Assembly (NCBI GenBank): GCA_947632435.1
Contig: CANRPC010000001.1
Location: 75,986 to 139,985 of the forward strand
DNA from: an uncultured Bacilli bacterium
GTDB lineage: Bacteria; Bacillota_I; Bacilli_A; RFN20; CAG-449
Direction of reading: 5' to 3'
DNA: 64,000 nucleotides
This document shows positions 9,128 through 36,411 of this stretch, piece after piece. Below the pieces are notes generated by a model. That model had not been told where the DNA came from, ran no database searches, and worked only from the letters and a program-made list of their open reading frames with translations. A program made the translations under genes and the position numbers. Position 1 is the first letter of the stretch, and every line of letters starts with the position of its first letter.

Positions 9128-10555
9128 ATGAAAAAGAGTAGTTTTTACTTAACTTTATGTGTACTTAGTGCTATATCGTGTTTAACAGGATGTAATAATT
9201 CAAATGGTAAAAGTGAAGATGCACCATTGAAAGTTAGAATTTCAGAAACTTGCCCTAAGCTTGTTCAATGTGGCAATACTATTAATCTTCAAGCTGATGT
9301 TTTAAATGATAAAAGCAATAAAGGTGTAACTTGGACTGGAGATGATAATTTAGTTGCCACGATTAGTGATGATGGTAAATTAACAGGTCTTTCTCAAGGT
9401 ACAGTTAAAGCAACCGCGAAAAGTATTACTGATCCAACTCAAACGGCAGAAGTAGTTGTCAATGTAAATTATAATACTTTGATTTCTGTTGAAATAACGA
9501 CAAAACCTTCCTCAATTAAAGTTGGAGAAACCATTAAATTAAGTGCATCAATAAATGGTGATCCCACAAATAGTGGTATTGGTTGGATGGTTAATAATGA
9601 GGCTTTAGCTACGATTGATCAAGAGGGAAATCTCACTGCGATTCAAATGGGACTTGAAGGAAAAATAATTGTTAATGCCTTTTCGAAAATTAATCCTTCA
9701 GCTACAAGTTCAAATTTAACAATTGAAATCAAACCATCAAGTAATGGTGAAGAAGCCATTGAAGATTTAGTTGAAAAAGTTGGCGATTATCGTTTAATCT
9801 TTAAAGATGATTTTTCATCTAATAACCTTAATAAAAATAACTGGGAAGTTATGATTGGTGATGGTAAAAAATATGGAGTTACCGATTGGGGTAATGATGA
9901 AAAGCAATTTTATCGCGAAGATAATATTAAATTTAAAGATCAAGAAATGTATATTGTTGCTAAAAAAGAGACAGAACGTAATGATACAAGAGGAAAAACT
10001 TATACCAGTGGACGAATTCGTTCTGAAAATTTAGTTTCTTATACATATGGTAGAATTGAAGCTCGTATTGCTTGCCCATTTGGTGATGGTCTATGGCCAG
10101 CATTTTGGATGTTACCTGATTCAAAAGATAATCCTTATGGAGGTTGGCCAAACAGTGGTGAAATCGATATTATGGAAGTAAGAGGTCGTCAACATTATTC
10201 AATGTTTGGAACAATCCATATTTCCGATGAATATGGAATTCATGATACACGTGCTTCTGATTATTTATTTCCAGAAGGTCAAGATATATCTAATTATCAT
10301 AAATACGCGGTTGAATGGGAAGAAGGATCTATTAAATGGTTTTGTGATGATGTACTTTATCTAACAATTGATAAAGATCATAATCCTTGGACATTAAAAG
10401 AAGGTACAGGAGTTTTCCCTTCACCATTTGATAAAAAATTTCATATTTTAATTAACATGGCAGTAGGAGGAAATTTTGATGGCAATCGTTTACCATTAGA
10501 TAAAGAACTACCAGCTTATATGAAAATTGATTATGTAAAATGGTTTAAAAAGTAG
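9128..10555 (+). CDS. GH16 endo-beta-1,3(4)-glucanase (laminarinase) lipoprotein with two N-terminal Big_2 domains
   Basis: Signal peptide plus lipobox (LTGC). Two Ig-like segments. The C-terminal domain has the GH16 catalytic motif SGEIDIMEV (ExDxxE) and WPAFWMLP. Confidence 0.75.
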   Translation: MKKSSFYLTLCVLSAISCLTGCNNSNGKSEDAPLKVRISETCPKLVQCGNTINLQADVLNDKSNKGVTWTGDDNLVATISDDGKLTGLSQGTVKATAKSITDPTQTAEVVVNVNYNTLISVEITTKPSSIKVGETIKLSASINGDPTNSGIGWMVNNEALATIDQEGNLTAIQMGLEGKIIVNAFSKINPSATSSNLTIEIKPSSNGEEAIEDLVEKVGDYRLIFKDDFSSNNLNKNNWEVMIGDGKKYGVTDWGNDEKQFYREDNIKFKDQEMYIVAKKETERNDTRGKTYTSGRIRSENLVSYTYGRIEARIACPFGDGLWPAFWMLPDSKDNPYGGWPNSGEIDIMEVRGRQHYSMFGTIHISDEYGIHDTRASDYLFPEGQDISNYHKYAVEWEEGSIKWFCDDVLYLTIDKDHNPWTLKEGTGVFPSPFDKKFHILINMAVGGNFDGNRLPLDKELPAYMKIDYVKWFKK

Positions 10556-22554: not shown

Positions 22555-23484
22555 ATGATTATTAACACTGGGCAAAGAACAGATATACCAGCATTTTATT
22601 CTAAATGGTTTATAAATAGAATAAAAGAGGGCTATGTTTTAGTTAGAAATCCATTTTATCCAAAATTAGTTACTAAATTTATTTTAGATCCTAATGTTGT
22701 TGATGTTATTGGATTTTGTAGTAAAAACCCTAGACCAATGTTTCAATATTTAAATGAATTAAAAAGATTTGGTCAATTTTGGTATATAACAATAACTGGT
22801 TTTGAAAATGATATAGAACCTAATGTTCCTTCGATTAATCAAGTAATAGAGGACTTTAAATATTTATCAAATAAAGTTGGAGTATTGTCTATATGCTGGA
22901 GATATACACCAATTATTATCAATGAAAAATATACTTTAAAAAGGCATATAGAAACATTTAAATATATCGCAGAAAATCTTAAAGGGTATACTTCTCTTGC
23001 TGTTTTTGGTTTTCTTGATTTATATGATAAATTAAAAAAGAATCATCAAGAACTTAAAGATTGCTCTGATGAAGATAAAATCATTATTACTAAAGAATTT
23101 ATAAAAATTGCTAAAAATAATAATATGGAATTAAGATTATGTTCAAAAGAAAAATGGCTTCAAGATTATGGAATAGATGTAAATGGTTGCATGAGAATTG
23201 AAGACTATGAAAGAGCAATTTCATCAAAGTTAGTAATTAAAAAGAAAATGCAAGCAAGAAAATCTTATTGTGCTTGCTATTTATCTAATGATATTGGAGC
23301 TTATAATACTTGCTTACATTTTTGTTCTTATTGCTATGCGAATAAAGATAAAAATGAAGTATTAAAAAATAATGCTCTTCATGATGATAATTCACCATTT
23401 TTAATTGGTAATTTAAAAGAAGATGATGTTATTAAAGAATATCCTGCAAAAAGCAATAAAACTGATGAAATAACTTTATTTTGA
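22555..23484 (+). CDS. DUF1848-family protein with a C-terminal Cys cluster (CxxxCxxC)
   Basis: The N-terminus MIINTGQRTDIPAFYSKWF matches the conserved start of DUF1848 proteins as I recall it. C-terminal CACY...CLHFCSYC. Confidence 0.45.
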   Translation: MIINTGQRTDIPAFYSKWFINRIKEGYVLVRNPFYPKLVTKFILDPNVVDVIGFCSKNPRPMFQYLNELKRFGQFWYITITGFENDIEPNVPSINQVIEDFKYLSNKVGVLSICWRYTPIIINEKYTLKRHIETFKYIAENLKGYTSLAVFGFLDLYDKLKKNHQELKDCSDEDKIIITKEFIKIAKNNNMELRLCSKEKWLQDYGIDVNGCMRIEDYERAISSKLVIKKKMQARKSYCACYLSNDIGAYNTCLHFCSYCYANKDKNEVLKNNALHDDNSPFLIGNLKEDDVIKEYPAKSNKTDEITLF

Positions 23485-23681
23485 TTTTTGTATAAGTTTA
23501 AAGCTTATAATTTTTAACACAATAATTTAATATTAATTTGATTTTAACATTTATTTTTTTTAATAATTTTTCACAAAAATAAATTAATTTTGTTTGTTTT
23601 CATATCAAACGGAACACTTTATTGACAAATTATTTATATATTAGTATATTATAAATGAATCAAATATTTAGGGGTGCAAAA

Positions 23682-24281
23682 ATGAACAAAAAAAAATATT
23701 CTTCATCGATAAAAAAAACACCATTTAAATATACAATATCAAAAAAAATAGCTGGATTAATGTTAAATAAATTAGATAGAAATGAAATTTATAACACATG
23801 TTTTAATTGTAATTATATTGAAATTGATTCTCTTGAAAGAAGAAGAGAAATTACAAATGTTATCTATAATAGGTTGTTAGAACTAGATAATTATTTGCTC
23901 GATTATTTTTATAATGGAGATGTTATAACTTCTAAATTTATTTTAGTATATGCTATAGCAAAATCCGATTCACTTTTTTTTGATTTTTTATTTGAAGTAT
24001 ATCGCGAAGCTTTGTTAGGAAATAAAAATTATATTTCAATTGATGATTTTGAAACATTTTTTTCTTCAAAAAAGGAATGTGATGTTGTTGTTTCAAAATG
24101 GGGAAATTTTACAATTGACCAATTAGCCAAAGGATATAGGAATATTTTAGTTGAATCTGGACTTGGAACTAGAATTAAAAGAAATATAAATGTTGAAAAG
24201 ATAACTATTCATCCAAATATTGAAGAGCATATTCAATTAATTGGAGATAAAAAATTTTTACAAGCATTATTAGGAGTGTAG
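23682..24281 (+). CDS. brxA: BREX type 1 BrxA (DUF1819-like)
   Basis: About 200-aa helical protein, first gene of a six-gene cluster with BREX-1 order and sizes. Start chosen at the internal ATG 23682 (RBS aggggtg), because the ORF-track ATG 23655 sits within the predicted -10 region. Confidence 0.5.
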   Translation: MNKKKYSSSIKKTPFKYTISKKIAGLMLNKLDRNEIYNTCFNCNYIEIDSLERRREITNVIYNRLLELDNYLLDYFYNGDVITSKFILVYAIAKSDSLFFDFLFEVYREALLGNKNYISIDDFETFFSSKKECDVVVSKWGNFTIDQLAKGYRNILVESGLGTRIKRNINVEKITIHPNIEEHIQLIGDKKFLQALLGV

Positions 24282-24286
24282 TAAGT

Positions 24287-24895
24287 GTGAGAAGTATAAA
24301 TGAAAGAAGTTTGAATGAACGTTTTAATGAACTTGAGGATAGAATGCAATCCGTTGAATCATTAACAAGATATGGTACTGCCAACGACATGAAGTTTTAT
24401 ATTTTTGATTATAATCCAAAAGATGAATACGCAGTTAGAAAAGAAATCAAAAAATTAAAAGAACATAATCAAAATATTATTGAATTTGATCTATATGAAA
24501 TGATGCTTGAAATCATTGAGAAACAAGGATATACAGAAGATGTAATTCGAGCAGAAACAGAATATGATAAAGAACATTTGCTATCTGAGATTTTTCAACC
24601 TATTTTATCAGTTGAAGAGTCAAATAATGAGTTTTTAGAAATGTTTAAATTAAGGGCATATGATGATGGATCAAAAATCATTTTGATAACAGGTGTAGGA
24701 AAAGCTTATCCAGTAATTAGAAGTCATACAATACTGAATAATTTACAAAGCATTTTCAGAAAAAATCCTGTTGTCATGATGTATCCAGGAAGATATGAAA
24801 CTAAGCAAAAAATGACTTTACGATTGTTTGATCGATTAGATGATGATAATTATTATAGAGCATTTCCACTAGTTGAAAGGAGAATTAGCAAATGA
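24287..24895 (+). CDS. brxB: BREX type 1 BrxB (DUF1788-like)
   Basis: 202 aa, second gene. Its stop overlaps the brxC start (ATGA). Confidence 0.5.
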   Translation: MRSINERSLNERFNELEDRMQSVESLTRYGTANDMKFYIFDYNPKDEYAVRKEIKKLKEHNQNIIEFDLYEMMLEIIEKQGYTEDVIRAETEYDKEHLLSEIFQPILSVEESNNEFLEMFKLRAYDDGSKIILITGVGKAYPVIRSHTILNNLQSIFRKNPVVMMYPGRYETKQKMTLRLFDRLDDDNYYRAFPLVERRISK

Positions 24896-27800
24896 TTATA
24901 AAAGATTTATTTAAAAAACCTATTGATAGAAGTATTCAAGGCGTAGTAACTATAGGTAATGAAGATGAAGAACAAAAATGGCAAGAATTAGAAGAATATG
25001 TTTGTACAGGAGAAATTACAAAACAATTTAGAATTTTCTTTAGAAAATATCGCGAATCAATTGCTGCTCCTACTGAAAAAATGGCTGCTTGGGTTACTGG
25101 ATTTTTTGGCTCTGGTAAATCACATTTTCTTAAAATATTAGGTTACATTCTTGAAAATGAGATAGTAGCTGGAATGAATGCAGTTGACTATTTCAATGAT
25201 AAAATTCAAGATGAGATGCTGCTTGCTGATATGAAAAAATGTGCTTCAGCAAATAACAAAGTTGTCTTATTTAATATTGATTCAAAAGCAAAATCAGATT
25301 CTAAAAATAAGACTCAGGCTATTATGGATATCATGCTTAGAGCATTTAATGAATCTGTTGGTTATTGTGGTGATAGACCATGGGTTGCGGATCTTGAAAG
25401 AATGCTTGATGAAGAAGGGTTATTAAATGATTTTGTTACTAAATTTGAAAAACTTTCTGGTCGTGATTGGAAAGCAAATCGATCAAAAGCTGCATTAAAT
25501 AAAAAAATCATAATTGATGCTTTAGTAGAAGTTAGAAAAGTTCCAAGAACAGATGCTGAAGATTATATTAATGATCAAATTAATAATTACACAAATTCTA
25601 CAGAGGATTTTGCAAAGATTGTTAACGAATATTGCAAAAAGAATAAAGCAAGAATCATTTTCTTGATGGATGAAGTTGGACAATTCATAGGTGATAATAC
25701 ACAATTAATGTTGAATTTACAGACTTGTGTTGAAGATTTGGGAAAATATTGTAAAGGACAAGCATGGGTTGTTGTTACATCACAACAAGAACTAAAAGCT
25801 ATGATTGATTCTACTAAGGATAAACAACAAGATTTTTCAAAAATTCAAGCAAGATTTGACACTAGAATTTTATTAAGTGGAGCAGAAGCAGGAGAGGTTA
25901 TAAAAAAACGTATTCTTGATAAAAAGGATAATGCAGTTAATTCTTTAAAATCATTATATGATAGCAATGCAAATAAAATTTCTAATTTAATTTTATTTGC
26001 TGGAACTCCTTCATGGAGCGGATATAAAGATGCAGAAGATTTTAAAAATGTATATCCTTTTGTGCCATATCAATTTGAATTACTTCAAAAGGTTTTCACT
26101 GCAATTAGAGAACATGGTATGTCTGAAGGTAAACATCTTGCACACTCTGAACGTTCTCTTTTAAGTGCATTTCAAGAATCTGCCAAAAAATATAGTGATG
26201 CTGAAACAAATATATTAATTCCATTTGATAGTTTTTATTCTACAATTGAACAATTTATTGATTGGGATATAAAAAATGTTTTTACTTCAGCAGAAAATAA
26301 GGCAACGCTTAGTGATTTTGATTTAAGAGTTCTAAAAATTTTATTTATGATTCTTCATGTAAAAGAAATGCCTGCAACAATAGATAGAATTGCAACATTG
26401 ATGATTGAATCGTTAAATGAAGATAAAGTTTTATTAAAAAAAGACATTGCTGAGTCATTAAAGGTTTTAGAAAAAGAAACATTAATTCAAAAAAATGGTG
26501 ATGAATTTGATTTTTTAACTAATGAAGAACAAGATGTTAATAAACAAATTAATCATGTCGATTATAATGAAGGCGAAGTTAAAAGAAATATTCTAGACAT
26601 TGTTTATGATAAAGTTCTTGAGCTAACTACTAAATTTCGTTATAAAAATAGATATGATTTTTCACTAAATAGATATGTTGATGATGAATTAAAAGGCAGT
26701 CATGGACAAGATAATATCTCTATTAAAATTATGACTAATTTTTCTGGAATTTCTGATCCAACCATGTTTGCGTCAGAATCTACAAGGAGCAATGCTCTAG
26801 TTGTTGATTTAACTGAAGGTAATTTTATTGAAGAATTAACTAGAGCAAACAAAATTTCACTTTATAAAAGAAACAATAGCAGTTCTTTATCTGTTTCAAT
26901 GACTGAAATTATGGCAAAGAAATCAGCTGAGCTTTCAGAAAGAGTTAAGAGAGCTGAAGAAATTATTAAAGAGTCACTTAGATCAGCACCAATTTATTTT
27001 AATGGAAATATAATTGATATAAAACAAAAAGATGGTAAAGATAGGTTAAATGATGCCTTAAATCAAGTTGTTGAACAAGAATATTATAAATTAGGATATG
27101 TGTCTTATTTTTATCAAGACCAAAAATCAATTTTAGAAGTTTTAAATTCAAATAATAATGGATTGTTTGGGAATGACATTGCAGGAGATGCAAATGAAAA
27201 AGCATTTCAAGAAATTTTTGATAAAATAAAAAATGATAAAAATATTGCTAAAAGAACAAATGTAAAAGAATTATTGGATCATTTTTCTAAAAAACCATAT
27301 GGTTGGAGAGATTTAGATGTTCTTGGTATGGTAGCTAAATTATTTAAATTAGAATTACTTCAAATATTTATTCATGATGTTCTTGTTGATGACAAAAATT
27401 ATAGTTTTAAAAATGATTTTGTAAAGAAAAATAGTCTTGATACAATGGTTGTTAGAGTTCAAGAAAAAATAGATGAATCAGTATTAATTCAAGTAAAACA
27501 AATTATGAATAAAATTTATTCATTATCACTTCAAATAAATGAATCTGAAATGAAAAAAGAGGTATTAAATTTCTTTACTAAAAAAAGAGATTTCTTAAGT
27601 AATTTAAAGATTAAATATGGTAATGAATTTGCAGGAGCTTCTTGCGTTCCTAGCATTTATAAAGATATTGATGAAATTGTTAGAACAAATGATTCTGCAA
27701 CTATTTTTAATGAAATTATTTTAAGAAAATATTCACTTGAAGAAAAATCTGAGATTTTAGAACAATTAGAAAGTTTTTACAAAGATGGCAGTAATCAACA

Positions 27801-28452
27801 AAAGGTATATAATGATGCTTTAGAAATTGTTAAATGGTATTACCAAAACAACAATTTATTGAATGCTTTAAATAAATTAGATGACGTAATTTTTAGTATA
27901 GATGAAATTCTTAAAATGGATGTTCCTTTTACTAAAATTAATCTATTAAGTGATTTAGTATTCAAAGCAGGAGAAGTAAAAGAACAAATATTAGAAGAAA
28001 AATATAATGAAGTAATTAATTCATTAAATGATGATCAAAAAAATATTAAAAATGAATTTGTTGGTGTTACAAGTTCTGATTTATCTGAATTTAAGAAAAA
28101 CAAAATAAAAGATAAATATGATAAGATTGAACATATGTATCAATCATGGTATAACACTTTATCAAATAAAACTCAAAATCTTGATTCTTATGTTGTATCA
28201 AGTCAAAACACAGTGGAAGATTTCAAAAAATTTATTAGTTCTATAATGGCTGAGGTGGAATCTATTCCTTATGGTGATAATTCTAACCAACCAGTAAAAG
28301 AAATAAAAAGAAAAAATGTTAGAGTCATTGATTGTGTTCCTATTGCTAAGAAAAGAATAAAGTCAAAAGATGATATTGATAGTGTTATTCAATCAATTAG
28401 AAAAGCATTAGAAGAAGCACTTCAAAATAACGATGAAATAACAATTAATTAA
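24892..28452 (+). CDS. brxC: BREX BrxC/PglY ATPase
   Basis: 1186 aa. N-terminal IQGVVTIGNEDEE...WVTGFFGSGKSHFLKILGYILEN matches the BrxC/PglY P-loop region (GxFGSGKSHF). A long helical C-terminus. Confidence 0.85.
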   Translation: MIIKDLFKKPIDRSIQGVVTIGNEDEEQKWQELEEYVCTGEITKQFRIFFRKYRESIAAPTEKMAAWVTGFFGSGKSHFLKILGYILENEIVAGMNAVDYFNDKIQDEMLLADMKKCASANNKVVLFNIDSKAKSDSKNKTQAIMDIMLRAFNESVGYCGDRPWVADLERMLDEEGLLNDFVTKFEKLSGRDWKANRSKAALNKKIIIDALVEVRKVPRTDAEDYINDQINNYTNSTEDFAKIVNEYCKKNKARIIFLMDEVGQFIGDNTQLMLNLQTCVEDLGKYCKGQAWVVVTSQQELKAMIDSTKDKQQDFSKIQARFDTRILLSGAEAGEVIKKRILDKKDNAVNSLKSLYDSNANKISNLILFAGTPSWSGYKDAEDFKNVYPFVPYQFELLQKVFTAIREHGMSEGKHLAHSERSLLSAFQESAKKYSDAETNILIPFDSFYSTIEQFIDWDIKNVFTSAENKATLSDFDLRVLKILFMILHVKEMPATIDRIATLMIESLNEDKVLLKKDIAESLKVLEKETLIQKNGDEFDFLTNEEQDVNKQINHVDYNEGEVKRNILDIVYDKVLELTTKFRYKNRYDFSLNRYVDDELKGSHGQDNISIKIMTNFSGISDPTMFASESTRSNALVVDLTEGNFIEELTRANKISLYKRNNSSSLSVSMTEIMAKKSAELSERVKRAEEIIKESLRSAPIYFNGNIIDIKQKDGKDRLNDALNQVVEQEYYKLGYVSYFYQDQKSILEVLNSNNNGLFGNDIAGDANEKAFQEIFDKIKNDKNIAKRTNVKELLDHFSKKPYGWRDLDVLGMVAKLFKLELLQIFIHDVLVDDKNYSFKNDFVKKNSLDTMVVRVQEKIDESVLIQVKQIMNKIYSLSLQINESEMKKEVLNFFTKKRDFLSNLKIKYGNEFAGASCVPSIYKDIDEIVRTNDSATIFNEIILRKYSLEEKSEILEQLESFYKDGSNQQKVYNDALEIVKWYYQNNNLLNALNKLDDVIFSIDEILKMDVPFTKINLLSDLVFKAGEVKEQILEEKYNEVINSLNDDQKNIKNEFVGVTSSDLSEFKKNKIKDKYDKIEHMYQSWYNTLSNKTQNLDSYVVSSQNTVEDFKKFISSIMAEVESIPYGDNSNQPVKEIKRKNVRVIDCVPIAKKRIKSKDDIDSVIQSIRKALEEALQNNDEITIN

Positions 28453-28463
28453 GAGGTGAACTT

Positions 28464-31045
28464 ATGGATAAAAGGGCATTACAAACTTATGCTGAATGGG
28501 CTAAGAAAAACTTAGAAAATCAAATTGAAGTTTCACTAAAAACATTAGGAATTAATAGCGATAATGATATTAAACAAGCTAGAAAAGTTGGTGAATATAC
28601 GATTATAGATGGAGATTCTAATTCCTATTCAGCAGATTTATATGATAAGCGAAATGATATTACAAATTTGATTAAATCAGATGGTTACAAAAATGTTATT
28701 GAAGAGTTTGCGTATACTTGGTTTAACAGAATAATAGCACTTAGATTTATGGAAGTTCATGACTTTTTACCTCACGGATTTAGAGTGCTTTCTTCTAGAG
28801 ATGGTAGTTTTGAGCCTGAAATTCTTAAAAATCTTAATTATGTTAAAGATGATTTAAAGTTAGATATGAGTATTATAGCTAGTCTTAATTCTCAAGGTAA
28901 AATAGAAGAAGTTTATCGATATGTTTTATTTAAACAATGTAATGCATTATCTAAGATTTTACCTATGCTTTTCAGTAATGAAAGTGCATATTTAGAATTA
29001 CTTCTTCCAAAAGCATTATTAAAAGGTGACACAATAATTACTAAACTTTTAGAAATAGATGAAAATAGCTTTTTAGAAGATGTAGAAGTAATTGGTTGGT
29101 TATATCAATTTTATGTAGCAAATGATAGACAAGAATTTAGAGATGCCAAAGTAGTCACAAAAGATTTAATTCCAACATTAACACAAGTATTTACTCCAGA
29201 TTGGATTGTTCGATACATGACAGAAAATTCACTTGGTAGATTGTGGCTAGAAAGTTATCCTAATTCTTCAATAAAATCAGAAATGAAATATTATGTTGAA
29301 GATGCAAAACAAGAAGAAGATATTCAAAAGAAAATTAATGAAATTAAATACAAAAATGTAAATCCCGAAGACATTAAAGTTATTGAACCATGTTGTGGCT
29401 CGGGACATATTTTAGTGTATATTTTTGATTTATTATTTAAAATGTATGAAGAAAAGGGTTATCAACAAAGAGAAATTCCTTCTTTGATATTATCTAAGAA
29501 CATATATGGATTAGAAATTGATAAACGTGCTACACAGCTTGCCACATTTTCATTAATTATGAAAGCAAGAAAATTAAATAATAGGTTTTTTAATGAAAAA
29601 TATTATGTTGAACCAAATGTAATTGAAATTTATGATTCAAGATTCTTTTTGGACTTTGATTATAAATCACAAATGGTAAGTTTAAAATTATTTAGTGACG
29701 AAGAAATAAAAGCAACAACTGAACTTATTGAAACATTTAGGTATGCCAAAACAATTGGATCACTTTTAATTATGCCTAAGATTAATATTTCATTAGTTGA
29801 AAATGTAATTGAAAAATTAACTAATAAAGCTGTTAATACTATATTTAATAATAAATTTATTGCTAATGGTCCTAAATTTCTTTCAAAATTAATTAATCAA
29901 TATAAAATAATGGCTAATAAATATGATGTTATGATCACAAACCCACCATATCTTGGAATATCAAAAATGGAAGCAAATCCTAAACGATATTTATCAGCAA
30001 AATATCCTAATAGTAAATCAGATATGTTTGCAATGTTTATGGAAACACCATTTGTTAAGAAAAATGGATTTAGAGCTATGGTAAATCCTGATTCTTGGAT
30101 GTTTCTTGTTAGTTATGAAGAATTAAGAAAGCAAATTATATTTAATGAAAGCATAGTGAATATGATTCATTTAGGGCTTGGAGCTTTTGATGCAACTGTT
30201 CAAACGACTTCATTTGTTATACGTAACTCTGCAATTGCTGGAAATGGTGTTTATTTCCGCCTTGTTGATGAAAAAGATAAAGAAAAAGCATTTTTGTCGG
30301 GGGGGGGGGTATAACTGCTAAATTAATTACCTTTTATAAAATACCAGGTTGCATATTATCATATTGGATTTCTAAAAAAACCATTGATAACTTCTTAAAT
30401 AAAAAACTTGGCGATGTAATAGTTACACGTGAAGGAATGGCAACAGCAGATAATGATAAATTTTTAAGACTTTGGAGCGAAGTTGCATTCACTAAAATTT
30501 ATTTTTGTGCAACTGATTATATTAATGCATTATATACGGGATATAAGTGGTTTCCATATAATAAGGGCGGTGTATTTAGAAAATGGTATGGCAATAATGA
30601 ATATATTGTAAATTGGCAAAATGATGGATTTGATATAAAAAATAACAAAGATGAAAAAAGCAAAAAAATTAGAAGTCACAATTATAATGGCAAATATGGT
30701 TTTTTGGAAGGAATTACATGGAGTTCGCTTTCAACGGGGTCCTTTTCATTAAGATATTCTCCTAAAGGATTTTTGTTTGATTCGAAGGGAGCAAAAGGCT
30801 TTCCAAATAATTCGAACGAAATTTGGTTTATTATGGGGTTATTAAATTCTCAAGTTGCAAAACATTATCTATCGTTTATAGCTCCAACAATTGACTATAA
30901 AGTTGGTGATATTATTCAAATACCATTTATAAAAAACAAAGAAAATAAGGTTAACGAATACGTTAAAAAAAATATTCAAGTTGTAAAGAAAGATTGGGAT
31001 TCTTTTGAAACTTCATGGGATTTCAAAAAACACCCATTAATATAA
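28464..31045 (+). CDS. pglX: BREX PglX N6-adenine DNA methyltransferase (N-terminal domain, MTase core and first target-recognition module). It is interrupted by a frameshift in a G11 tract, giving ORFs 28464..30314 and 30311..31045.
   Basis: N-terminal YTWFNRIIALRFMEV (the conserved PglX start). SAM-binding EPCCGSGHIL and motif IV NPPY (MITNPPYLG). The protein continues without a stop in the -1 frame after the G-run (GGG ITAKLITFYKIPGCILSYWIS...). 9 or 12 G would restore the frame. Confidence 0.75.
30299..30309 (+). repeat. Poly-G homopolymeric tract (G11) within pglX. It is a candidate phase-variation switch, currently OFF.
   Basis: Eleven consecutive G located precisely at the pglX frameshift. 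G-tract phase variation of pglX is established for the Streptomyces Pgl system and other BREX loci. Confidence 0.8.
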
Positions 31046-31086
31046 GGAGCGCATTCCTCCTAAATGAATGCAAAGGAGGAAAAAAT

Positions 31087-31818
31087 ATGGAATCAAAACA
31101 TTTAAGATATGAGATAGCATCTACAAAATTTAATATGATACCTGGAAATCCTATTGCATATTGGATAAGTAATGCGTTTAGAAATATTTTTTCAATGGGA
31201 ATTCCTATCGAAAAAATAGGAGACGTTAGGACAGGGATATCAACTGGTAAAAATGATTTATATCTTCGTTTATGGTATGAGATATCTTGTAGTTCTATTA
31301 ATTTTTATCAAACTAATATTAATAAGATTAACTTAAATGAAAAAAAATACATTCCTTATAATAAAGGTGGTGATGCTAGAAAATGGTATGGCAATAATGA
31401 ATATGTAGTTAATTGGTCACAGCATGATAAATTTCATCGTAGCAGACCTAATTTTTCAGATATTTATTTAAAAAAAGGATTAACTTGGTCATTTGTTACT
31501 TCTGGCATGTTTTCATCAAGATATTATCCAAATGGTTTTTTATGGGATGTTGCTGGATCTCCTTGCGTTTTTAATGATGATAGCAGTTTATATTATATTT
31601 TAGGATTTCTATCTACTAAAATTGCTTCTAATATTTTAAAGTTAATTAATCCAACCCTTAATTGTCAAGTAATTGATATACAAAGAGTTCCTATAATTGA
31701 TACTGATAATGATAAGGATAAAGTTATAAATATCTCTATTATGTCAGTTAAAAAATCGAAAGATGATTGGGATTCTTTTGAAACTAGTTGGGATTTCAAA
31801 AAACATCCATTAATTTAA
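31087..31818 (+). CDS. Second, divergent copy of the PglX target-recognition module, encoded as a stand-alone ORF with a strong SD
   Basis: 244 aa from ATG 31087 (SD aaaggagg at 31072-31079). It is paralogous to residues after the G-tract in pglX: both contain AYWIS, LRLW, YNKGG..RKWYGNNEY.VNW, and end with the identical DWDSFETSWDFKKHPLI. The central regions are diverged. Confidence 0.6.
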   Translation: MESKHLRYEIASTKFNMIPGNPIAYWISNAFRNIFSMGIPIEKIGDVRTGISTGKNDLYLRLWYEISCSSINFYQTNINKINLNEKKYIPYNKGGDARKWYGNNEYVVNWSQHDKFHRSRPNFSDIYLKKGLTWSFVTSGMFSSRYYPNGFLWDVAGSPCVFNDDSSLYYILGFLSTKIASNILKLINPTLNCQVIDIQRVPIIDTDNDKDKVINISIMSVKKSKDDWDSFETSWDFKKHPLI

Positions 31819-31835
31819 AAGAATAGGAGTCATAT

Positions 31836-32894
31836 ATGGCAAACAAGAACAATAACAAAGAAGTCACAATACGAAGTTCTGCTGCAGAATATTTAACTTA
31901 TGTGGCATCGGTAGGAGAAGAAACGCAAAATATAGAGGTAAGGTATGAAGATGAAAATATATGGTTAACGCAAAAAATGTTGGGATTACTTTTTAATGTT
32001 GAACCCCATACGATTAATTATCATATTAAAAAAATATTTGCAGATAGTGAATTAAGTGAAGATTCAGTTACTCGAAATTTTCGAATAACTGCCAGTGATG
32101 GAAAAACTTATGAAACAAAGCATTATAATCTTCAAATGATTATCGCAATTGGTTTTAAAGTTAACTCTGAAAGAGCCGTTCAATTTCGTAAATGGGTAAA
32201 CCAAATTGCATCCGAATATACAATTAAAGGATGGGTTATGGATGATGAGCGATTGATTAGAGGAACTTATTTAACTGATAAGTATTTTGAAGAACAATTG
32301 GAAAGGGTTCGTGAAATACGTGCCTCTGAAAGAAAGTTTTACCAAAAAATAACCGATTTATATGCTACTGCAATTGATTACGATAAGGAAGCTTTAGCAA
32401 CAAGAAGATTTTATGCCACAGTTCAAAACAAAATGCATTATGCTATTCATGGCCATACAGCAGCAGAATTAATTGTAGAACGGGCAGATTCAAAAAAAGA
32501 ACATATGGGACTTACTACATGGAAAGATAGTCCTGATGGAAAGATTCAAAAATCAGATGTAATTATTGCTAAGAATTACTTAACTGAATTTGAACTTAGT
32601 CAACTAAATAGAATGGTAAATGCGTATTTGGATTTTGCCGAAAATATGGCTCAAAGAAAAATTCCACTTACAATGGAAGATTGGGAAAACCGGCTTAATT
32701 CATTTATTGAAATGTTTGAATATGGGCTTTTAAAAGATGCGGGCAAAGTTTCAAACGAAATTGCAAGACTTCACGCAGAAACAGAGTTTGAAAAATATAG
32801 AGTAATTCAAGATGCATTGTTTATGTCCGATTTTGATAAGTATGTGCTTGAATTGGAAGAACATATTAAAAAAAATAAAAACAATAAGAAGTAA
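31836..32894 (+). CDS. rhuM: RhuM-family (virulence-protein RhuM / Fic-DOC-associated) protein embedded within the pglX region
   Basis: YNLQMIIAIGFKVNSERAVQFRKWVNQIASEYTIKGWVMDDERL is highly characteristic of RhuM-family proteins, which are commonly inserted between hsdM and hsdS of type I R-M loci. RBS aggag 7 nt upstream. Confidence 0.75.
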   Translation: MANKNNNKEVTIRSSAAEYLTYVASVGEETQNIEVRYEDENIWLTQKMLGLLFNVEPHTINYHIKKIFADSELSEDSVTRNFRITASDGKTYETKHYNLQMIIAIGFKVNSERAVQFRKWVNQIASEYTIKGWVMDDERLIRGTYLTDKYFEEQLERVREIRASERKFYQKITDLYATAIDYDKEALATRRFYATVQNKMHYAIHGHTAAELIVERADSKKEHMGLTTWKDSPDGKIQKSDVIIAKNYLTEFELSQLNRMVNAYLDFAENMAQRKIPLTMEDWENRLNSFIEMFEYGLLKDAGKVSNEIARLHAETEFEKYRVIQDALFMSDFDKYVLELEEHIKKNKNNKK

Positions 32895-32906
32895 AGGAAC
32901 AATTTT

Positions 32907-33842
32907 ATGGGAAGATTAATAGCTGATAAATTTAAGCAATGGGAAGAAGAGTGTCAAGAAAGATTTAATACTTTAAAAGCCAACGAAGAAGAATTAAACA
33001 GAATTTTCATTGAAATATATGGACTTCAAGATGAACTAACACCTGAAGTTGCAGATAAAGATGTTACTGTTAGATTAGCAGATAGAGAAAGAGATATAAA
33101 GTCATTGATCTCCTATATGATTGGTTTAATTATGGGAAGATATTCCTTAGATGTTGAAGGACTAGCTTATGCTGGAGGCAAGTGGGATTCAAGTAAATAT
33201 ATCACATATAAACCTGATGATGAAGGAATTGTCCCTATATATTCTAAAATTGGTATGTCAGATAGTTTAACTGCAAGAATTATTGAACTTATTAAACATA
33301 TTTATGGTGAGGATACATATCGAGCAAATATAGACTTTATTGCTGAAACTCTAGGAAAAAAACAAAATGAATCATCTGAGGAAACATTAAACAGATATTT
33401 ATGTGATGATTTTTATAATGATCATTTAAAAATATATCAAAAAAGACCTATTTATTGGATGTTTTCAAGTGGTAAAAATAATGGATTTAAATGTCTTATT
33501 TATCTTCATAGATATAGTGAAGATACTCTTGCTATTATTAACTCTAAATATTTTTTAAATGAATCTGCAAGATTAAAAAGAGAAATTGAAGATCTTTTTA
33601 TTCAACTTGAAACCGCAGAAGGAAAAGATAAAATTCGTCTTGAAAAAGAAAAAAAATTAGTGGAAGCAAAATATAAAGAAATGATTGAATATGGACAAGT
33701 ATTAGACCATATGGCAAATCAATATATTCAATTGGATTTAGATGATGGTGTTAAAGTAAATTATGCAAAATTTCAAGGCATTGAAATAATAAATGATAGT
33801 GGTGCAAAAGTTAAAAAAGACTTATTAGTTCCAATAAAGTAA
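32907..33842 (+). CDS. pglX: C-terminal domain of PglX, encoded as a separate 311-aa ORF
   Basis: NRIFIEIYGLQDEL, KRPIYWMFSSGK and GFKCLIYLHRY resemble the conserved C-terminal region of BREX PglX / type IIG-like MTases. This is from memory and not searchable here. Size sum: 616 + ~245 + 311 = ~1170 aa, the normal PglX length. Confidence 0.55.
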   Translation: MGRLIADKFKQWEEECQERFNTLKANEEELNRIFIEIYGLQDELTPEVADKDVTVRLADRERDIKSLISYMIGLIMGRYSLDVEGLAYAGGKWDSSKYITYKPDDEGIVPIYSKIGMSDSLTARIIELIKHIYGEDTYRANIDFIAETLGKKQNESSEETLNRYLCDDFYNDHLKIYQKRPIYWMFSSGKNNGFKCLIYLHRYSEDTLAIINSKYFLNESARLKREIEDLFIQLETAEGKDKIRLEKEKKLVEAKYKEMIEYGQVLDHMANQYIQLDLDDGVKVNYAKFQGIEIINDSGAKVKKDLLVPIK

Positions 33843-33856
33843 GGAGGTCAAACTAA

Positions 33857-36397
33857 ATGGCAAATATAGATTATCAAGAAGCCAAAAAAGAAATAGATAA
33901 GATATTTGAAAATAATATTGGTGAAAGAAAAATTGTTTTTTGGTATGATGCTCCAAAAAATTTTGAAGAAGATATAAAATCAGATAATTTTGAAAAATGT
34001 AAGCTTCTTATTTGTGATAGAAATGAATTTGAAATCAAAAAAACAATTGAACACGATGATTTAGAATCTAATTTTTTGATTTATATCCCAAACGAAAAAC
34101 CAATTGATACTGAAAATTGGTTATTGGATATTCTTATGTATAGTGAAGAATATTATGCTGATACAGTTGCTTTAATAATGAGACGATTCAATCTTTCTAA
34201 TAATGATTTAAGAAAAGTCATTGAAAGTCATTCAAAGTTTTTTGATAGTGAAATTAGAAGCAAGAAACTTTCATCTTATATAAAAATTAATGATAATATG
34301 ACAAGAGATCAATTTAAGTTAGCTATGATGGCGGTTTTAACTAAATCAGATCTATGTTCTATAGAATCAATATTAGAAGAACTTGTATTTGATGATCATG
34401 AACATACAAAATACAATGAATTAAAGAAATTTAAATTTGAAAATTATCTATGGGACCAAATTTGTGAATATTTCAATTATGATGGCGATTTAAAAATTGA
34501 AATGCTTATTAAAAGATTTATATTTACTACTTTTTTAGAACAAATAGAAAATGATGATAAAGAATATTTCACGAAATTGCCATCATATTATGATCAATTT
34601 GTTATTAAGGAAAAAGGTGTAAATGATGCTAGATATTTTATAAATAAAATTAAAAATGATAAAAGGTATGAAAAACTTCAAAATAATCTTGCAGATGAAA
34701 TGAAAATTGAAGGTCTTATTTCTACAAAAGATTTAATGAGTATTCAAAGTGCGGATGTTTTTGAATGCTTTGACAATTTTATTATTGATAAGATTGCTAA
34801 TAGTTTACAAAGTGGTAGTTTAGATTATGAAACTTTTCAAAGAATTATTTATAATCGTATAAATTCAATTTGGTATGAAAAATATAAAAATAAATACAAT
34901 TTTTTATTATCAGTAATTAAATTTTTAAAGGAAATTGAAAAACCAATTAGTCTTGATTCTACAGTTAATGATTATATAATGCAATATACTAAGGAATACT
35001 ATAAAATTGACATGTTTTATAGACATGTTTGTGCAAGCTTCAAAAAAATTGATTCTACAGAAGTTTTTGAAAATTTGATTAATAGAATTGAATCTTTATA
35101 TCAAAATAACTTTTTAGATATTTTAGGAAAAAATTATAATGGTGCATTAAGTAGTCAAAAAGATTGGAATTTTATTGGTGTTAATATGACAAATGATTTC
35201 TATCAGTATATTCAAAAAAATCCTGCAAAAAAAATGTTTGTCATTATATCTGATGCTTTACGATATGAGATAGGATATGAAATATATGAACAAGTAAAAG
35301 CAGATCCAATATTAAAAGGTGGAGCAGAAATTAAATATGCAATTAGTCCATTACCTTCTGAAACTCGTCAAGGAATGGCATCTTTATTACCACACAAAAC
35401 GATTACATATAAAAATAAAGCTTTTTATGTAGATAATGATATGCCTACAAATTCTATTGATGCTAGAAATAATATTTTACAGGCAAAAAATAAAGGATAT
35501 TCAGCAATTAAATTTGATACGATTAATTCATTAACACAAAGTAAATTACGCCAATATATGCAAGATAAAACTTTAGTTTATATCTATCATGATGTTATCG
35601 ATAATGCAGGAGAAAATAAAGAAAATGCAGTATTTGATGTAGTTCAATCTGCAATTGATGACATTATTACTTTAGTAAAAAAGTTATATAATAATTTACA
35701 AATTTCAAATTTCTATATTACGGCAGATCATGGTTTTTTGTATAGAAGAAACGAAATTCATGAATCTAGTAAATATAGTAATATTGTTTCTTTAAAACCA
35801 ACAGAAGTTGCTAAACGTTACGTATTAACTGATGATGAAACATTATCAATTCCGTATACTACTGAATTTAATTTAATTAATTTATCAAATGGTAATATGA
35901 AAGCTATTACTCCAAATGGATATGATTTATTTAAAACACAAGGAGGAGGAATCCAATATGTTCATGGTGGTGCTTCCTTACAGGAAACAATTGTGCCTAT
36001 AATACATATTAGCGAATTAAGATCGAGTAAGTTAAAAGATAGTATTGGACCTGTTGGTGTAAGATTAAAGAGTATAACACGTAAAATAACAAATAGAAGT
36101 TTTACTTTAGAATTTGAACAATATGAAAAAGTAGAAGATAAAAAACAAGCTATAACATGTGAAACATTTATAATTGACGAATTTGGTAATAAAGTTACGA
36201 ATGAATATAAATTTGTAGCTAATTCAAATAGTGATGATTCTTCTACAAGAATTTCTAGAATTAGATTTACACTTAAAAATATTGAATTTGATAGGAACAG
36301 ACCTTATTTTATGATATTAAAAAATATAGATAAACCAGATGAATACATTGAGAAGGAACTTTTCACAATTGATATTATTGGATTTAAAATGTTTTAA
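33857..36397 (+). CDS. pglZ: BREX PglZ (alkaline-phosphatase-superfamily)
   Basis: 846 aa. N-terminal RKIVFWYDAPKNFEED. Central PglZ-domain motif MFVIISDALRYEIGYE. Confidence 0.85.
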   Translation: MANIDYQEAKKEIDKIFENNIGERKIVFWYDAPKNFEEDIKSDNFEKCKLLICDRNEFEIKKTIEHDDLESNFLIYIPNEKPIDTENWLLDILMYSEEYYADTVALIMRRFNLSNNDLRKVIESHSKFFDSEIRSKKLSSYIKINDNMTRDQFKLAMMAVLTKSDLCSIESILEELVFDDHEHTKYNELKKFKFENYLWDQICEYFNYDGDLKIEMLIKRFIFTTFLEQIENDDKEYFTKLPSYYDQFVIKEKGVNDARYFINKIKNDKRYEKLQNNLADEMKIEGLISTKDLMSIQSADVFECFDNFIIDKIANSLQSGSLDYETFQRIIYNRINSIWYEKYKNKYNFLLSVIKFLKEIEKPISLDSTVNDYIMQYTKEYYKIDMFYRHVCASFKKIDSTEVFENLINRIESLYQNNFLDILGKNYNGALSSQKDWNFIGVNMTNDFYQYIQKNPAKKMFVIISDALRYEIGYEIYEQVKADPILKGGAEIKYAISPLPSETRQGMASLLPHKTITYKNKAFYVDNDMPTNSIDARNNILQAKNKGYSAIKFDTINSLTQSKLRQYMQDKTLVYIYHDVIDNAGENKENAVFDVVQSAIDDIITLVKKLYNNLQISNFYITADHGFLYRRNEIHESSKYSNIVSLKPTEVAKRYVLTDDETLSIPYTTEFNLINLSNGNMKAITPNGYDLFKTQGGGIQYVHGGASLQETIVPIIHISELRSSKLKDSIGPVGVRLKSITRKITNRSFTLEFEQYEKVEDKKQAITCETFIIDEFGNKVTNEYKFVANSNSDDSSTRISRIRFTLKNIEFDRNRPYFMILKNIDKPDEYIEKELFTIDIIGFKMF

Positions 36398-36411
36398 GGG
36401 GGAAAACAAAT

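What the first reader, a model, noticed from the sequence alone, without database searches (positions are those of the whole stretch)
30299..30309. G11 homopolymer inside pglX: slipped-strand ON/OFF switch of BREX, currently OFF
Eleven consecutive G in a genome of about 28% GC. The pglX reading frame continues perfectly in the -1 frame after the tract (FLSGGG then ITAKLITFYKIPGCILSYWIS...). A tract of 9 or 12 G would give one continuous ORF. Poly-G phase variation of pglX is established for the Streptomyces coelicolor Pgl system and has been noted for other BREX loci. Such a tract is not expected by chance in such an AT-rich genome.
Basis: partly seen in the sequence, partly recalled or inferred. 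Interest (0 to 1): 0.8.

Follow-up and report, generated by a model that had tools for sequence, protein, structure and literature searches.

The report
Poly-G switch in split BREX methyltransferase
A run of eleven G's sits exactly at the flexible hinge of the DNA-methylase of a BREX anti-phage system and, by gaining or losing a G, connects or disconnects the enzyme from the first of two alternative DNA-recognition modules; the switch is real and widespread in gut bacteria, but the gene it sits in is built from several separate pieces, so it is more than a simple on/off switch.

Summary
The G11 run at 30299-30309 is real and far beyond chance. It lies in a complete type 1 BREX operon (brxA-B-C, pglX, pglZ, brxL). 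It maps to the flexible hinge between the methyltransferase lobe and the target-recognition domain (TRD) of PglX. With G11 the 616-aa methyltransferase ORF stops two codons later. G9 or G12 fuses it to TRD-A, but only as far as 31045 (859/860 aa).

The rest of PglX is encoded separately: a second, 41%-identical TRD-B with its own ribosome-binding site, an inserted rhuM gene, and a 311-aa C-terminal ORF.

Homologous hinge tracts (G8-G12) occur in 14 of 43 related loci. All 14 carry 2-3 tandem TRD ORFs; none of the 21 single-TRD loci has a tract. Of the 120 closest homologues, 74 stop at the tract and 46 read through. Both states occur within groups ≥97% identical. An otherwise identical contig from another sample has G10.

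This is therefore a genuine hypermutable tract, now in the unfused state. Whether BREX is fully off or re-targeted through free TRD-B is unresolved. It is a new variant of a known kind.

The parts
23655..24281 (+). brxA
   Evidence: Pfam BrxA E=3.7e-36 and PADLOC BrxA E=3.5e-46. The best sigma-70-like match on the + strand (23622-23650) lies just upstream.
24287..24895 (+). brxB
   Evidence: Pfam BrxB E=3.4e-37 and PADLOC E=3.6e-55.
24892..28452 (+). brxC
   Evidence: PADLOC BrxC-PglY over its full length, 1127 bits. Pfam BrxC domains also match.
28464..30314 (+). pglX part 1: N-terminal helical domain plus N6-adenine methyltransferase lobe (616 aa in the G11 state; stop TAA at 30312-30314)
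   Evidence: PADLOC PglX profile PDLC02521 positions 1-613 of 1174, E=1.8e-203. Pfam Eco57I, N6_Mtase and MmeI_Mtase. Its last 200 aa align to E. coli BrxX 431-630.
30299..30309 (+). G11 homopolymer encoding the Gly3-4 hinge; hypermutable tract, currently out of frame
   Evidence: It maps to about BrxX residues 635-640, at the start of the flexible hinge loops 638-675. Homologous G8-G12 tracts are seen. An otherwise identical contig carries G10.
30310..31045 (+). TRD-A: first target-recognition module, in the -1 frame relative to part 1; no start codon near the tract; ends ...DWDSFETSWDFKKHPLI*
   Evidence: PADLOC PglX profile positions 631-869, E=9.8e-88. Aligns to Salmonella PglX 8C45 residues 650-885 (E=2.9e-62) and to BrxX 649-870. 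The frame is open from the tract to the stop.
31054..31081 (+). Intercistronic hairpin UUCCUCCU (31054-31061) : AGGAGGAA (31074-31081) that masks the TRD-B Shine-Dalgarno; an SD-like AGGAG directly after the TRD-A stop can pair with the same anti-SD arm
   Evidence: MFE -10.9 kcal/mol, z=-3.0 against mononucleotide shuffles for the 56-nt spacer. Not significant in a 91-nt context. The same three-element layout, with different sequences, occurs in 9 of 9 long-spacer loci. Function is inferred.
31087..31818 (+). TRD-B: second, stand-alone target-recognition module (243 aa from the ATG behind AAGGAGG; the mechanical ORF starts at 31015)
   Evidence: PADLOC PglX profile positions 620-869, E=1e-75. 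41% identical to TRD-A. A 243-aa gene is called on an independent contig. The 10 closest homologues (≥59% identity) are all stand-alone ORFs of 234-249 aa.
31836..32894 (+). rhuM-family gene inserted between the TRD array and the pglX C-terminal ORF
   Evidence: Pfam Virulence_RhuM E=1.1e-106 and PADLOC PDC-S05 E=1.2e-145. Other loci carry different cargo genes at the same site.
32907..33842 (+). pglX part 3: helical spacer plus C-terminal domain as a separate 311-aa ORF (MGRLIADKFKQWEEEC...)
   Evidence: PADLOC PglX profile positions 878-1166, E=7e-115. Aligns to BrxX 945-1189, E=2.2e-55. It is a separate ORF with the same start motif in every tract-bearing locus that extends far enough to show it (L039 by tblastn and the junction sequence; the L040 contig ends before this point).
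33857..36397 (+). pglZ
   Evidence: Pfam PglZ E=2.7e-41 and PADLOC PglZ E=7e-205.
36412..38439 (+). brxL
   Evidence: Pfam BrxL_N, BrxL_ATPase and Lon_C; PADLOC BrxL 1087 bits.

Best explanation
The G11 run is a genuine slipped-strand (contingency) tract. It lies in the codons for a short poly-glycine linker at the flexible hinge between the methyltransferase lobe and the target-recognition domain (TRD) of a type 1 BREX PglX.

In this lineage PglX is naturally built from separate cistrons:
- an N-terminal methyltransferase ORF;
- TRD-A, which can be joined to it only through the tract;
- a stand-alone TRD-B with its own ribosome-binding site;
- a stand-alone C-terminal ORF.

Replication slippage changes the tract length. 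G9 or G12 gives an 859/860-aa methyltransferase-TRD-A fusion. G8, G10, G11 or G13 gives a ~616-aa methyltransferase lobe and no TRD-A, because TRD-A has no start codon of its own here.

The present G11 state is unfused. Methylation and phage exclusion directed by TRD-A are therefore off (inferred from the published requirement of the PglX TRD for both activities).

Shown here: the tract, its position in the hinge, its frame consequences, its length polymorphism among near-identical sequences, the multi-ORF architecture, and the strict co-occurrence of tract and extra TRD ORFs.

Inferred: the slippage mechanism itself, the phenotypic effect, and what happens to TRD-B and the C-terminal ORF in the unfused state. 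I lean, with no better than even odds, towards this reading: the locus as a whole loses most activity in the unfused state, because the TRD-B ribosome-binding site is masked by a hairpin. The alternative, in which the free methyltransferase lobe works with free TRD-B, remains open.
For: Tract and frames:
- Tract and reading frames. Chance expectation 0.02.
- A complete BREX-1 gene set surrounds it.
- The tract maps between BrxX residue 630 and 649. That is the flexible hinge described as residues 638-675.

Comparative evidence for hypermutability:
- 14 of 43 related loci have G8-G12 at the same junction. With the window that makes 8 in frame and 7 out of frame, and TRD1 is an intact open frame in every out-of-frame locus.
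- Of the 120 closest homologues (≥67% identity), 74 end at the tract (GGV*, GGGV*, GGGYN..) and 46 read on into TRD1. None is full length.
- Groups with N-termini ≥97% identical contain several tract states.
- Contig L046 from another sample is identical to the window over 2,233 nt except for G10.

Architecture:
- Every TRD module ends ...WDFKKHPLI-stop. The next ORF follows behind an SD that overlaps or closely follows the stop codon.
- All 15 tract-bearing loci (window plus 14) have 2 or more TRD ORFs. None of the 21 single-TRD loci has a tract.

Precedent:
- G-tract phase variation of pglX in S. coelicolor (PMC4365076).
- G9 tract in the type IIG gene cj0031 (PMC4889913).
Against: - No read-level data were available, so switching within one population is not shown.
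- The same-strain contigs have only ~3x coverage, so a single-base homopolymer miscall cannot be excluded for any one assembly.
- All three assemblies of this strain are out of frame (G11, G11, G10). No in-frame variant of this exact strain was seen.
- The association of tract with multi-TRD loci could partly reflect inheritance of the hinge-plus-TRD array as one mobile module. Several loci share nearly identical tract contexts despite 56-71% N-terminal identity.
- The phenotypic consequence (BREX off versus re-targeted) is not established by anything computed here.
Confidence: 0.78

Rival explanations
1. Specificity switch rather than on/off switch. The unfused 616-aa methyltransferase lobe is a functional subunit that assembles in trans with the free TRD-B and the C-terminal protein. 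The tract would then toggle BREX between TRD-A-directed and TRD-B-directed motifs (or between A+B and B alone).
For: - Tract-less relatives keep the methyltransferase lobe permanently unfused, with SD/ATG or ATGA-overlap junctions and the layout N | TRD1 | TRD2-Cterm (L006, L031, L049, L050/L051).
- Tracts occur only where a second TRD ORF exists: 15 of 15 against 0 of 21.
- On a rough NJ tree of the N-termini, tract-bearing loci are interleaved with tract-less ones.
- TRD2 and TRD3 ORFs are intact, with their own SD and ATG, in all loci.
- The closest homologues of TRD-B are all stand-alone ORFs.
- The two lobes of BrxX are joined only by flexible hinge loops.
Against: - In the window and 8 other loci the TRD2 SD is sequestered in the minimum-energy hairpin. 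TRD-B may therefore be poorly translated when no ribosomes traverse TRD-A.
- No experiment shows a BREX TRD acting in trans. [quoted passage not shown]
- In the fused state TRD-B would also be made, and its role then is unexplained.
Confidence: 0.3
2. Homopolymer assembly or sequencing error. The true tract is a stable in-frame G9 or G12 and there is no phase variation.
For: - Homopolymers of 10-12 are error-prone.
- The same-strain contigs have ~3x coverage.
- Both poly-G tracts in the window are out of frame.
Against: - Two assemblies of the same strain agree on G11.
- 74 of the 120 closest homologues, drawn from many independent assemblies and sources, stop at the tract in several different registers. 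That is too frequent and too varied for random miscalls.
- The second tract reads G10 in the three further same-strain contigs retrieved. This look-up can only return identical products, so it is biased towards agreement.
Confidence: 0.06
3. Recoding. Ribosomal -1 frameshifting or RNA-polymerase slippage on the G run makes both the short lobe and the fusion from one fixed genotype, so the tract sets a ratio rather than a heritable state.
For: - G GGG GGG is a formally slippery heptamer.
- The G11 state needs exactly a -1 shift to reach TRD-A.
- A stop codon lies two codons downstream of the tract.
Against: - There is no stimulatory RNA structure 3' of the tract (z=+1.2).
- Related loci sit in all three registers (G8, G9, G10, G11, G12). 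No single programmed shift direction is conserved.
- Nearly 40% of homologues are simply in frame.
Confidence: 0.08
4. Decaying pseudogene. pglX has been broken by a frameshift, a partial duplication and a rhuM insertion, and the locus is dead.
For: In this window pglX is in four pieces with a foreign gene inside it.
Against: - The same break points recur in dozens of loci at 50-96% identity: a stop after ...KKHPLI, restart motifs M-x-I/L-R-Y-E and MGRLI(S/A)DKYKEWEEEC, and stop codons overlapped by an SD.
- All pieces are intact in those loci, including TRD1 in every out-of-frame locus.
- All other BREX genes in the window are full length.
Confidence: 0.04

Closest known systems
G-tract phase variation of pglX in the Streptomyces coelicolor Pgl system (BREX type 2; Sumby & Smith 2003, as cited in PMC4365076)
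   Same: A poly-G run inside the BREX/Pgl methyltransferase gene expands or contracts (8 to 7 G in that system). This switches phage resistance heritably and reversibly.
   Different: [quoted passage not shown] Here the tract lies in a 25.6%-GC genome, at the hinge of a type 1 PglX that is split into several cistrons with a spare TRD. The position of the S. coelicolor tract relative to the domains was not checked.
cj0031/cj0032 of Campylobacter jejuni NCTC11168 (type IIG restriction-modification enzyme with a G9 tract; PMC4889913)
   Same: A poly-G tract about two-thirds of the way along a large gamma-class N6-adenine methyltransferase gene splits it into two ORFs when out of frame. The variable TRD lies in the downstream part. 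ON/OFF states alter the methylome. The window's PglX pieces also score strongly on a PADLOC type IIG model.
   Different: Cj0031 is a solitary nuclease-methyltransferase fusion, not a BREX component. It has a single TRD and no stand-alone TRD or C-terminal ORFs. Most Cj0031 alleles lack the tract.
Inversion-driven swapping of the PglX middle (TRD) region, and the Brevibacterium casei split PglX (Milman et al., NAR 2023, PMC9881135)
   Same: Alternative TRD-encoding segments lie next to the expressed pglX. In B. casei PglX is split exactly where the variable region ends, with the C-terminus as a separate CDS. RhuM-family genes are enriched next to such loci.
   Different: Those systems use inverted repeats and an adjacent recombinase. 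Here all TRD copies are on the same strand and each has its own start and SD. No long or high-identity inverted repeats were found, only short AT-rich pairs of 14-28 nt. No recombinase was detected among the ORFs scanned with Pfam, and no sizeable minus-strand ORF lies in the locus. The variable element is a homopolymer.
Canonical single-chain type 1 BREX PglX/BrxX (Salmonella 8C45; E. coli 9EWZ)
   Same: The domain order is the same: NTD-methyltransferase, hinge, TRD, helical spacer, CTD. All parts are recognisable by sequence.
   Different: [quoted passage not shown] Here the chain is broken after the TRD, and conditionally at the hinge, and an extra free TRD is encoded.

Membership tests
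Type 1 BREX | Gene set brxA, brxB, brxC, pglX, pglZ, brxL in one cluster | tested here: met
   All six were found in the canonical order on the + strand, 23655-38439, with strong Pfam and PADLOC scores.
Type 1 BREX | PglX carries gamma-class N6-adenine methyltransferase motifs, a TRD and a CTD homologous to BrxX | tested here: met
   Eco57I, N6_Mtase and MmeI_Mtase domains match. NPPY is visible in the alignment to BrxX. TRD and CTD align to 8C45 and 9EWZ. They are distributed over separate ORFs.
Type 1 BREX | Site-specific m6A methylation and phage exclusion | not testable with these tools
   Requires a methylome and phage assays.
Simple-sequence-repeat contingency locus (slipped-strand phase variation) | Homopolymer of about 8 or more inside a reading frame, far beyond the compositional expectation | tested here: met
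   G11 in a window of 15% G. Expected 0.02 runs of 9 or more G.
Simple-sequence-repeat contingency locus (slipped-strand phase variation) | Length changes move between an in-frame product and early termination, with the downstream frame kept intact | tested here: met
   In-silico G7-G14 series. TRD1 is open in all 7 out-of-frame loci.
Simple-sequence-repeat contingency locus (slipped-strand phase variation) | Tract-length polymorphism among otherwise near-identical strains | tested here: met
   L046 has G10 against G11 in the window, with 0 mismatches over 2,233 nt. Several tract states occur within ≥97%-identity groups. Caveat: coverage of the same-strain contigs is low.
Simple-sequence-repeat contingency locus (slipped-strand phase variation) | High-frequency reversible switching within a clonal population, with a phenotype | not testable with these tools
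   No reads or cultures were available.
Recombinase/inversion-driven PglX TRD shufflon | Inverted partial pglX copies flanked by inverted repeats | tested here: not met
   Both TRDs and all pglX parts are on the + strand. Only short AT-rich inverted matches were found in 28000-34200.
Recombinase/inversion-driven PglX TRD shufflon | Site-specific recombinase gene adjacent to the locus | tested here: not met
   No recombinase domain was found in the ORFs scanned between 16743 and 44714. There are no sizeable minus-strand ORFs in 18000-44000.
Programmed ribosomal frameshift site | Conserved shift direction and a 3' stimulatory RNA structure | tested here: not met
   Relatives occupy all three registers. 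There is no stable fold 3' of the tract (z=+1.2).

The most novel reading that the evidence does not exclude
The hinge poly-G tract is not an on/off switch for BREX. It is a selector among plug-in recognition cartridges.
- In frame, the methyltransferase lobe is covalently tied to TRD-A.
- Out of frame, the free lobe pairs in trans with the stand-alone TRD-B (and, in other genomes, TRD3) and the separate C-terminal subunit.
- One-base slippage would therefore re-targets both self-methylation and phage exclusion to a different DNA motif.
- The conserved three-element RNA layout between TRD1 and TRD2 (an SD-like segment inside the footprint of the terminating ribosome, an anti-SD, and the true SD) would make TRD2 translation respond to whether ribosomes traverse TRD1.

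This would be a Type-I-like separable specificity subunit in BREX, and a new way of coupling a homopolymer to specificity switching.
Probability: 0.27. Interest if true: 0.85.

Novelty: new variant of a known kind. Interest (0 to 1): 0.6.

Why it matters
BREX is widespread, and its methyltransferase PglX decides which DNA is treated as self. Current structural and review literature treats the TRD as an integral part of a single PglX chain.

This locus and its relatives come mostly from gut Bacillota metagenome-assembled genomes. They show a recurrent alternative design:
- PglX is cut on both sides of the variable TRD.
- Two or three TRD cartridges lie in tandem.
- A hypermutable poly-glycine hinge ties or unties the first cartridge.

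If the free lobe works with free TRDs, BREX specificity could be re-targeted by a single-base slip without recombinases. That would explain how these systems keep pace with escaping phages. It would also offer a natural scaffold for engineering BREX specificity.

Even on the conservative reading, the data show that hinge poly-G phase variation of type 1 BREX is common in gut metagenomes: about 60% of the closest homologues are in the unfused state. This matters for predicting defence phenotypes from assemblies. It also matters for annotation, because the stand-alone TRD ORFs currently have no Pfam family and are called hypothetical.

Tried and rejected
2. Exact-protein look-ups for same-strain contigs returned only five short ~3x contigs. 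One spanned the tract with G10 and one with G11.
3. The promoter and terminator scan was uninformative in this AT-rich DNA: 108 promoter-like sites against 122 expected. It showed only a good promoter-like site before brxA and no internal terminator.
4. I looked for inverted repeats or a recombinase that would indicate a shufflon. None was found.
5. I looked for direct repeats that could bring TRD-B under the methyltransferase by deletion. Only a 54-nt 3'-end repeat (91%) and a 65-nt internal repeat (85%) are shared by TRD-A and TRD-B, and there is no shared 5' flank. Deletion would destroy one TRD rather than switch between them, so this was rejected as the switching mechanism.
6. I searched for near-identical TRD alleles at position 1 in one genome and position 2 or 3 in another, as a sign of recent cassette exchange. 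The best cross-position pairs are only 62-71% identical.
7. I looked for an RNA stimulator of frameshifting 3' of the tract. None was found.
8. Stop-codon read-through joining TRD1, TRD2 and the C-terminus was rejected. The pieces are all in one frame in L003 and L023 but not in L004, L030 or the window.
9. Literature searches for BREX with homopolymer or split PglX found the S. coelicolor, Cj0031 and B. casei precedents. They found no description of a hinge tract combined with tandem stand-alone TRDs. The library is incomplete, and Goldfarb 2015 could not be opened.
Full report
**1. The observation**

Window 30299-30309 is eleven consecutive G on the + strand. The window is 25.6% GC, with 15% G. 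The only other G or C run of six or more is a G10 at 20243-20252. Runs of nine or more G are expected 0.02 times in dinucleotide-preserving shuffles. An i.i.d. estimate for a G11 or C11 run is about 6e-5.

The upstream frame reads ...DEKDKEKAFLSGGGV-stop (TAA at 30312-30314). The -1 frame continues GGGGITAKLITFYKIPGCILSYWIS.... Editing the tract in silico gives the following products:
- G9: 859 aa
- G12: 860 aa
- G8: 615 aa
- G10: 618 aa
- G11: 616 aa
- G13: 619 aa

**2. The locus**

Pfam and PADLOC identify a complete type 1 BREX operon on the + strand:
- brxA 23655-24281
- brxB 24287-24895
- brxC 24892-28452
- pglX, starting at 28464
- pglZ 33857-36397
- brxL 36412-38439

The unexpected point is that pglX is not one interrupted gene. 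Against a 1174-position PglX profile, the pieces map as follows:
- ORF 28464-30314 covers positions 1-613 (N-terminal domain plus methyltransferase).
- The -1 frame 30310-31045 covers 631-869. I call this TRD-A.
- A further ORF ending at 31818 covers 620-869 again. I call this TRD-B.
- 31836-32894 is a RhuM-family gene.
- 32907-33842 covers 878-1166.

TRD-A and TRD-B are 41% identical. Both end ...DWDSFETSWDFKKHPLI-stop.

TRD-A aligns to Salmonella PglX (8C45) residues 650-885 and to E. coli BrxX (9EWZ) residues 649-870. The C-terminal ORF aligns to BrxX 945-1189. The end of the methyltransferase ORF aligns up to BrxX 630.

The poly-G codons therefore fall at about BrxX 635-640. This is the beginning of the 'flexible hinge loops (residues 638-675)' that connect the two jaws of BrxX. 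A Gly3 or Gly4 linker at that place should be structurally tolerated (inference).

A restored tract thus yields methyltransferase-TRD-A only. The last third of PglX is always a separate polypeptide here.

**3. Is this decay or design?**

A scan of one genome per species returned 43 related loci. The closest are uncultured Bacilli genomes from rabbit gut, at 95-96% identity. Mapping all parts onto these loci shows a recurrent architecture:
- a methyltransferase ORF;
- two or three tandem TRD modules, each ending ...W(D)FKKHPL(I)-stop;
- sometimes one or two unrelated cargo genes;
- a C-terminal ORF beginning MGRLI(S/A)DKYKEWEEEC;
- pglZ and brxL.

The cistrons are tightly coupled. Typically the junction reads TAG-GAGG-N5-8-ATG, with the stop codon overlapped by the next Shine-Dalgarno. 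All pieces are intact across loci that are only 50-70% identical. This excludes random decay.

The best homologues of TRD-B (≥59% identity, 10 of 10) are stand-alone ORFs of 234-249 aa with no Pfam family.

Canonical single-chain loci are also present, with one TRD and ~1197 aa in one frame (for example L007 and L013).

**4. Is the tract hypermutable?**

Fourteen of the 43 loci carry a G8-G12 run at exactly the same junction, and no other run of eight or more G or C anywhere in 4-18 kb (the only others are two G7 runs and one C7, elsewhere in L011, L033 and L035). Reading frames show:
- In frame (8): L001 (G12); L003, L010, L023, L030, L032, L039 (G9); L040 (G10, in a different register).
- Out of frame (7): the window and L002 (G11); L004 and L033 (G10); L025 (G8); L009 and L036 (G9, in a different register).

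In every out-of-frame locus TRD1 is still a full open frame.

In the 5.8-billion-protein collection, the 120 best homologues of the methyltransferase ORF (≥67% identity) are strictly bimodal. Seventy-four are 614-632 aa and end at the tract (GGV*, GGGV*, GGGYN..., GGYN...). Forty-six are 852-867 aa and read into TRD1. None is full length.

Single-linkage groups with N-termini ≥97% identical contain several states side by side.

For the window's own strain:
- Contig L046 from another sample matches 2,233 nt with no mismatch except G10 instead of G11.
- Contig L045 from a third sample is identical, with G11.

Coverage of those contigs is only ~3x, so any single call could be wrong. The overall pattern across many independent assemblies is what a contingency tract produces, and it is not what sporadic miscalls produce.

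No RNA structure follows the tract (z=+1.2), and relatives sit in all three registers. This argues against programmed frameshifting.

**5. What the tract is coupled to**

All 15 tract-bearing loci (the window plus 14) have at least two TRD ORFs. None of the 21 assessable single-TRD loci has a tract. On a rough NJ tree of the methyltransferase ORFs, the two kinds are interleaved. However, several loci share almost the same tract context despite 56-71% N-terminal identity. The hinge-plus-TRD array may therefore move as a module, and the association is not made of independent events.

Tract-less relatives show fixed splits at the same hinge:
- L006, L049 and L050/L051 are N | TRD1 | TRD2-Cterm (568, 553 and 550 aa for the fused last ORF).
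- L031 has an ATGA overlap with a GGAGG upstream.
- L012 has an interrupted tract, G6TG5.

These cases indicate that an unfused methyltransferase lobe is a normal, maintained configuration in this family.

**6. A second layer: the TRD1-TRD2 spacer**

In the window, the TRD-B start is most plausibly the ATG at 31087, behind AAGGAGG. An independent gene call gives the same 243 aa.

The minimum-energy fold pairs UUCCUCCU (31054-31061) with AGGAGGAA (31074-31081), which hides that Shine-Dalgarno.

All nine loci with a long TRD1-TRD2 spacer have dissimilar sequences. Yet each has an MFE hairpin that sequesters the TRD2 SD (z -1.2 to -4.8). Each also has an SD-like element directly after the TRD1 stop codon that can pair with the same anti-SD arm in the nascent RNA (-1 to -11 kcal/mol).

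This three-element layout implies that TRD2 translation is conditional on ribosome traffic through TRD1. Geometry and energetics do not tell me the sign:
- A terminating ribosome could open the hairpin. That would be coupling, so an out-of-frame tract would also lower TRD-B.
- Alternatively the ribosome could cover element 1 and so favour the masking hairpin. That would be anti-coupling, so an out-of-frame tract would raise TRD-B.

This part is inference only.

**7. Mechanism I commit to**

The tract is a slipped-strand switch that ties the methyltransferase lobe to TRD-A or unties it. In the G11 state no TRD-A is made, because there is no start codon near the tract in this lineage. TRD-A-directed methylation and exclusion are therefore off. 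This follows from published evidence that the PglX TRD determines the motif for both activities.

Confidence in this core is about 0.78.

Whether the whole system is silent, or instead runs on free TRD-B, is unresolved. I give the re-targeting model about 0.27-0.30.

**8. Comparison with known systems**

- G-tract phase variation of pglX is established for the type 2 system of S. coelicolor.
- A high frequency of disrupted pglX genes has been taken as a hint of phase variation in BREX generally.
- The type IIG gene cj0031 of C. jejuni has a G9 tract two-thirds of the way along the gene, upstream of its variable TRD.
- Inversion-based swapping of the PglX middle region, and a B. casei PglX split exactly after the variable region, have been described. 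RhuM genes are enriched nearby.

In the literature I could search, I did not find this combination:
- a type 1 PglX cut on both sides of the TRD;
- tandem same-strand stand-alone TRD cistrons;
- a conserved hinge poly-G that conditionally fuses the first TRD.

A recent review states that, unlike Type I systems, the BREX TRD is an integral part of the methyltransferase.

I therefore class this as a new variant of a known kind.

**9. Verdict**

It is a real contingency tract and it is currently out of frame. However, it acts on a modular, multi-TRD PglX, and 'BREX OFF' is not established.
- Interest is 0.6.

Noticed in passing
window 20243-20252 (gene about 19967-22265, + strand): A second poly-G tract (G10) lies inside a gene for a signal-peptide-bearing protein with no Pfam match (MKKFKNSKLIALTAFMLFGANYAAQA...; NGNFDGGGGHTISNF motif). 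G10 stops the frame after 99 aa. G9 or G12 would give 765/766 aa. It is probably a second contingency locus, encoding a surface protein and also out of frame. The three further same-strain contigs retrieved also carry G10, but the look-up can only find identical products.
   Followed up: partly
window 31836-32894; also L001 10697-11547, L002 12105-13191, L009 11459-13525, L012 11358-12835, L025 3001-3881, L032 9713-10531, L033 11326-13085, L036 11342-13752: The gap between the last TRD ORF and the pglX C-terminal ORF is a hotspot for unrelated cargo genes. The window has a RhuM-family gene (PADLOC PDC-S05). The listed relatives carry one or two different ORFs of 110-522 aa at the same place. 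Their functions were not examined.
   Followed up: partly
L003 8124-8150, L023 9854-9880, L025 1366-1392, L030 7124-7150, L032 8199-8225, L039 534-560: In this subgroup an in-frame ATG lies 7 nt after the G run (GGGGGTATAAYAATGAA). The G run could therefore act as a Shine-Dalgarno, and TRD1 might still be made as a free protein when the tract is out of frame. The window, L001 and L002 lack this ATG. The fixed-split locus L031 has GCGGAGGTATATATATGA at the same place, which resembles an ancestral or derived SD+ATG version of the tract context.
   Followed up: partly
window 31046-31086 and the equivalent TRD1-TRD2 spacers in L001, L002, L009, L010, L012, L033, L036, L040: A three-element RNA layout (SD-like segment directly after the stop codon, anti-SD, true SD) has a minimum-energy hairpin that masks the TRD2 ribosome-binding site. 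It is conserved in structure but not in sequence across nine loci. Whether it couples or anti-couples TRD2 translation to TRD1 translation is unknown.
   Followed up: partly
window 39111-43305 (+ strand) and 22555-23484: Further defence-like genes flank the BREX operon. Downstream are an 891-aa protein with a weak AAA_5 match and a PADLOC candidate PDC-M26A hit, and an overlapping 509-aa ORF with no match. Upstream is a DUF1848 protein that matches a PADLOC DRT-associated model. BREX thus appears to sit in a defence island.
   Followed up: no
protein collection: P0121-P0240 (homologues of window 31087-31815): Stand-alone TRD proteins of about 235-260 aa form a large family with no Pfam domain and are named 'hypothetical protein' where they are named at all. 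They would be missed by domain-based BREX annotation. PADLOC already holds separate PglX fragment models of 607, 593, 707 and 722 positions, which probably reflect the same split architectures.
   Followed up: partly
L012 about 9850-9872: At the homologous hinge the tract is interrupted (G6-T-G5) and out of frame, while TRD1, TRD2 and the C-terminal ORF are intact. It is possibly a stabilised unfused variant.
   Followed up: no
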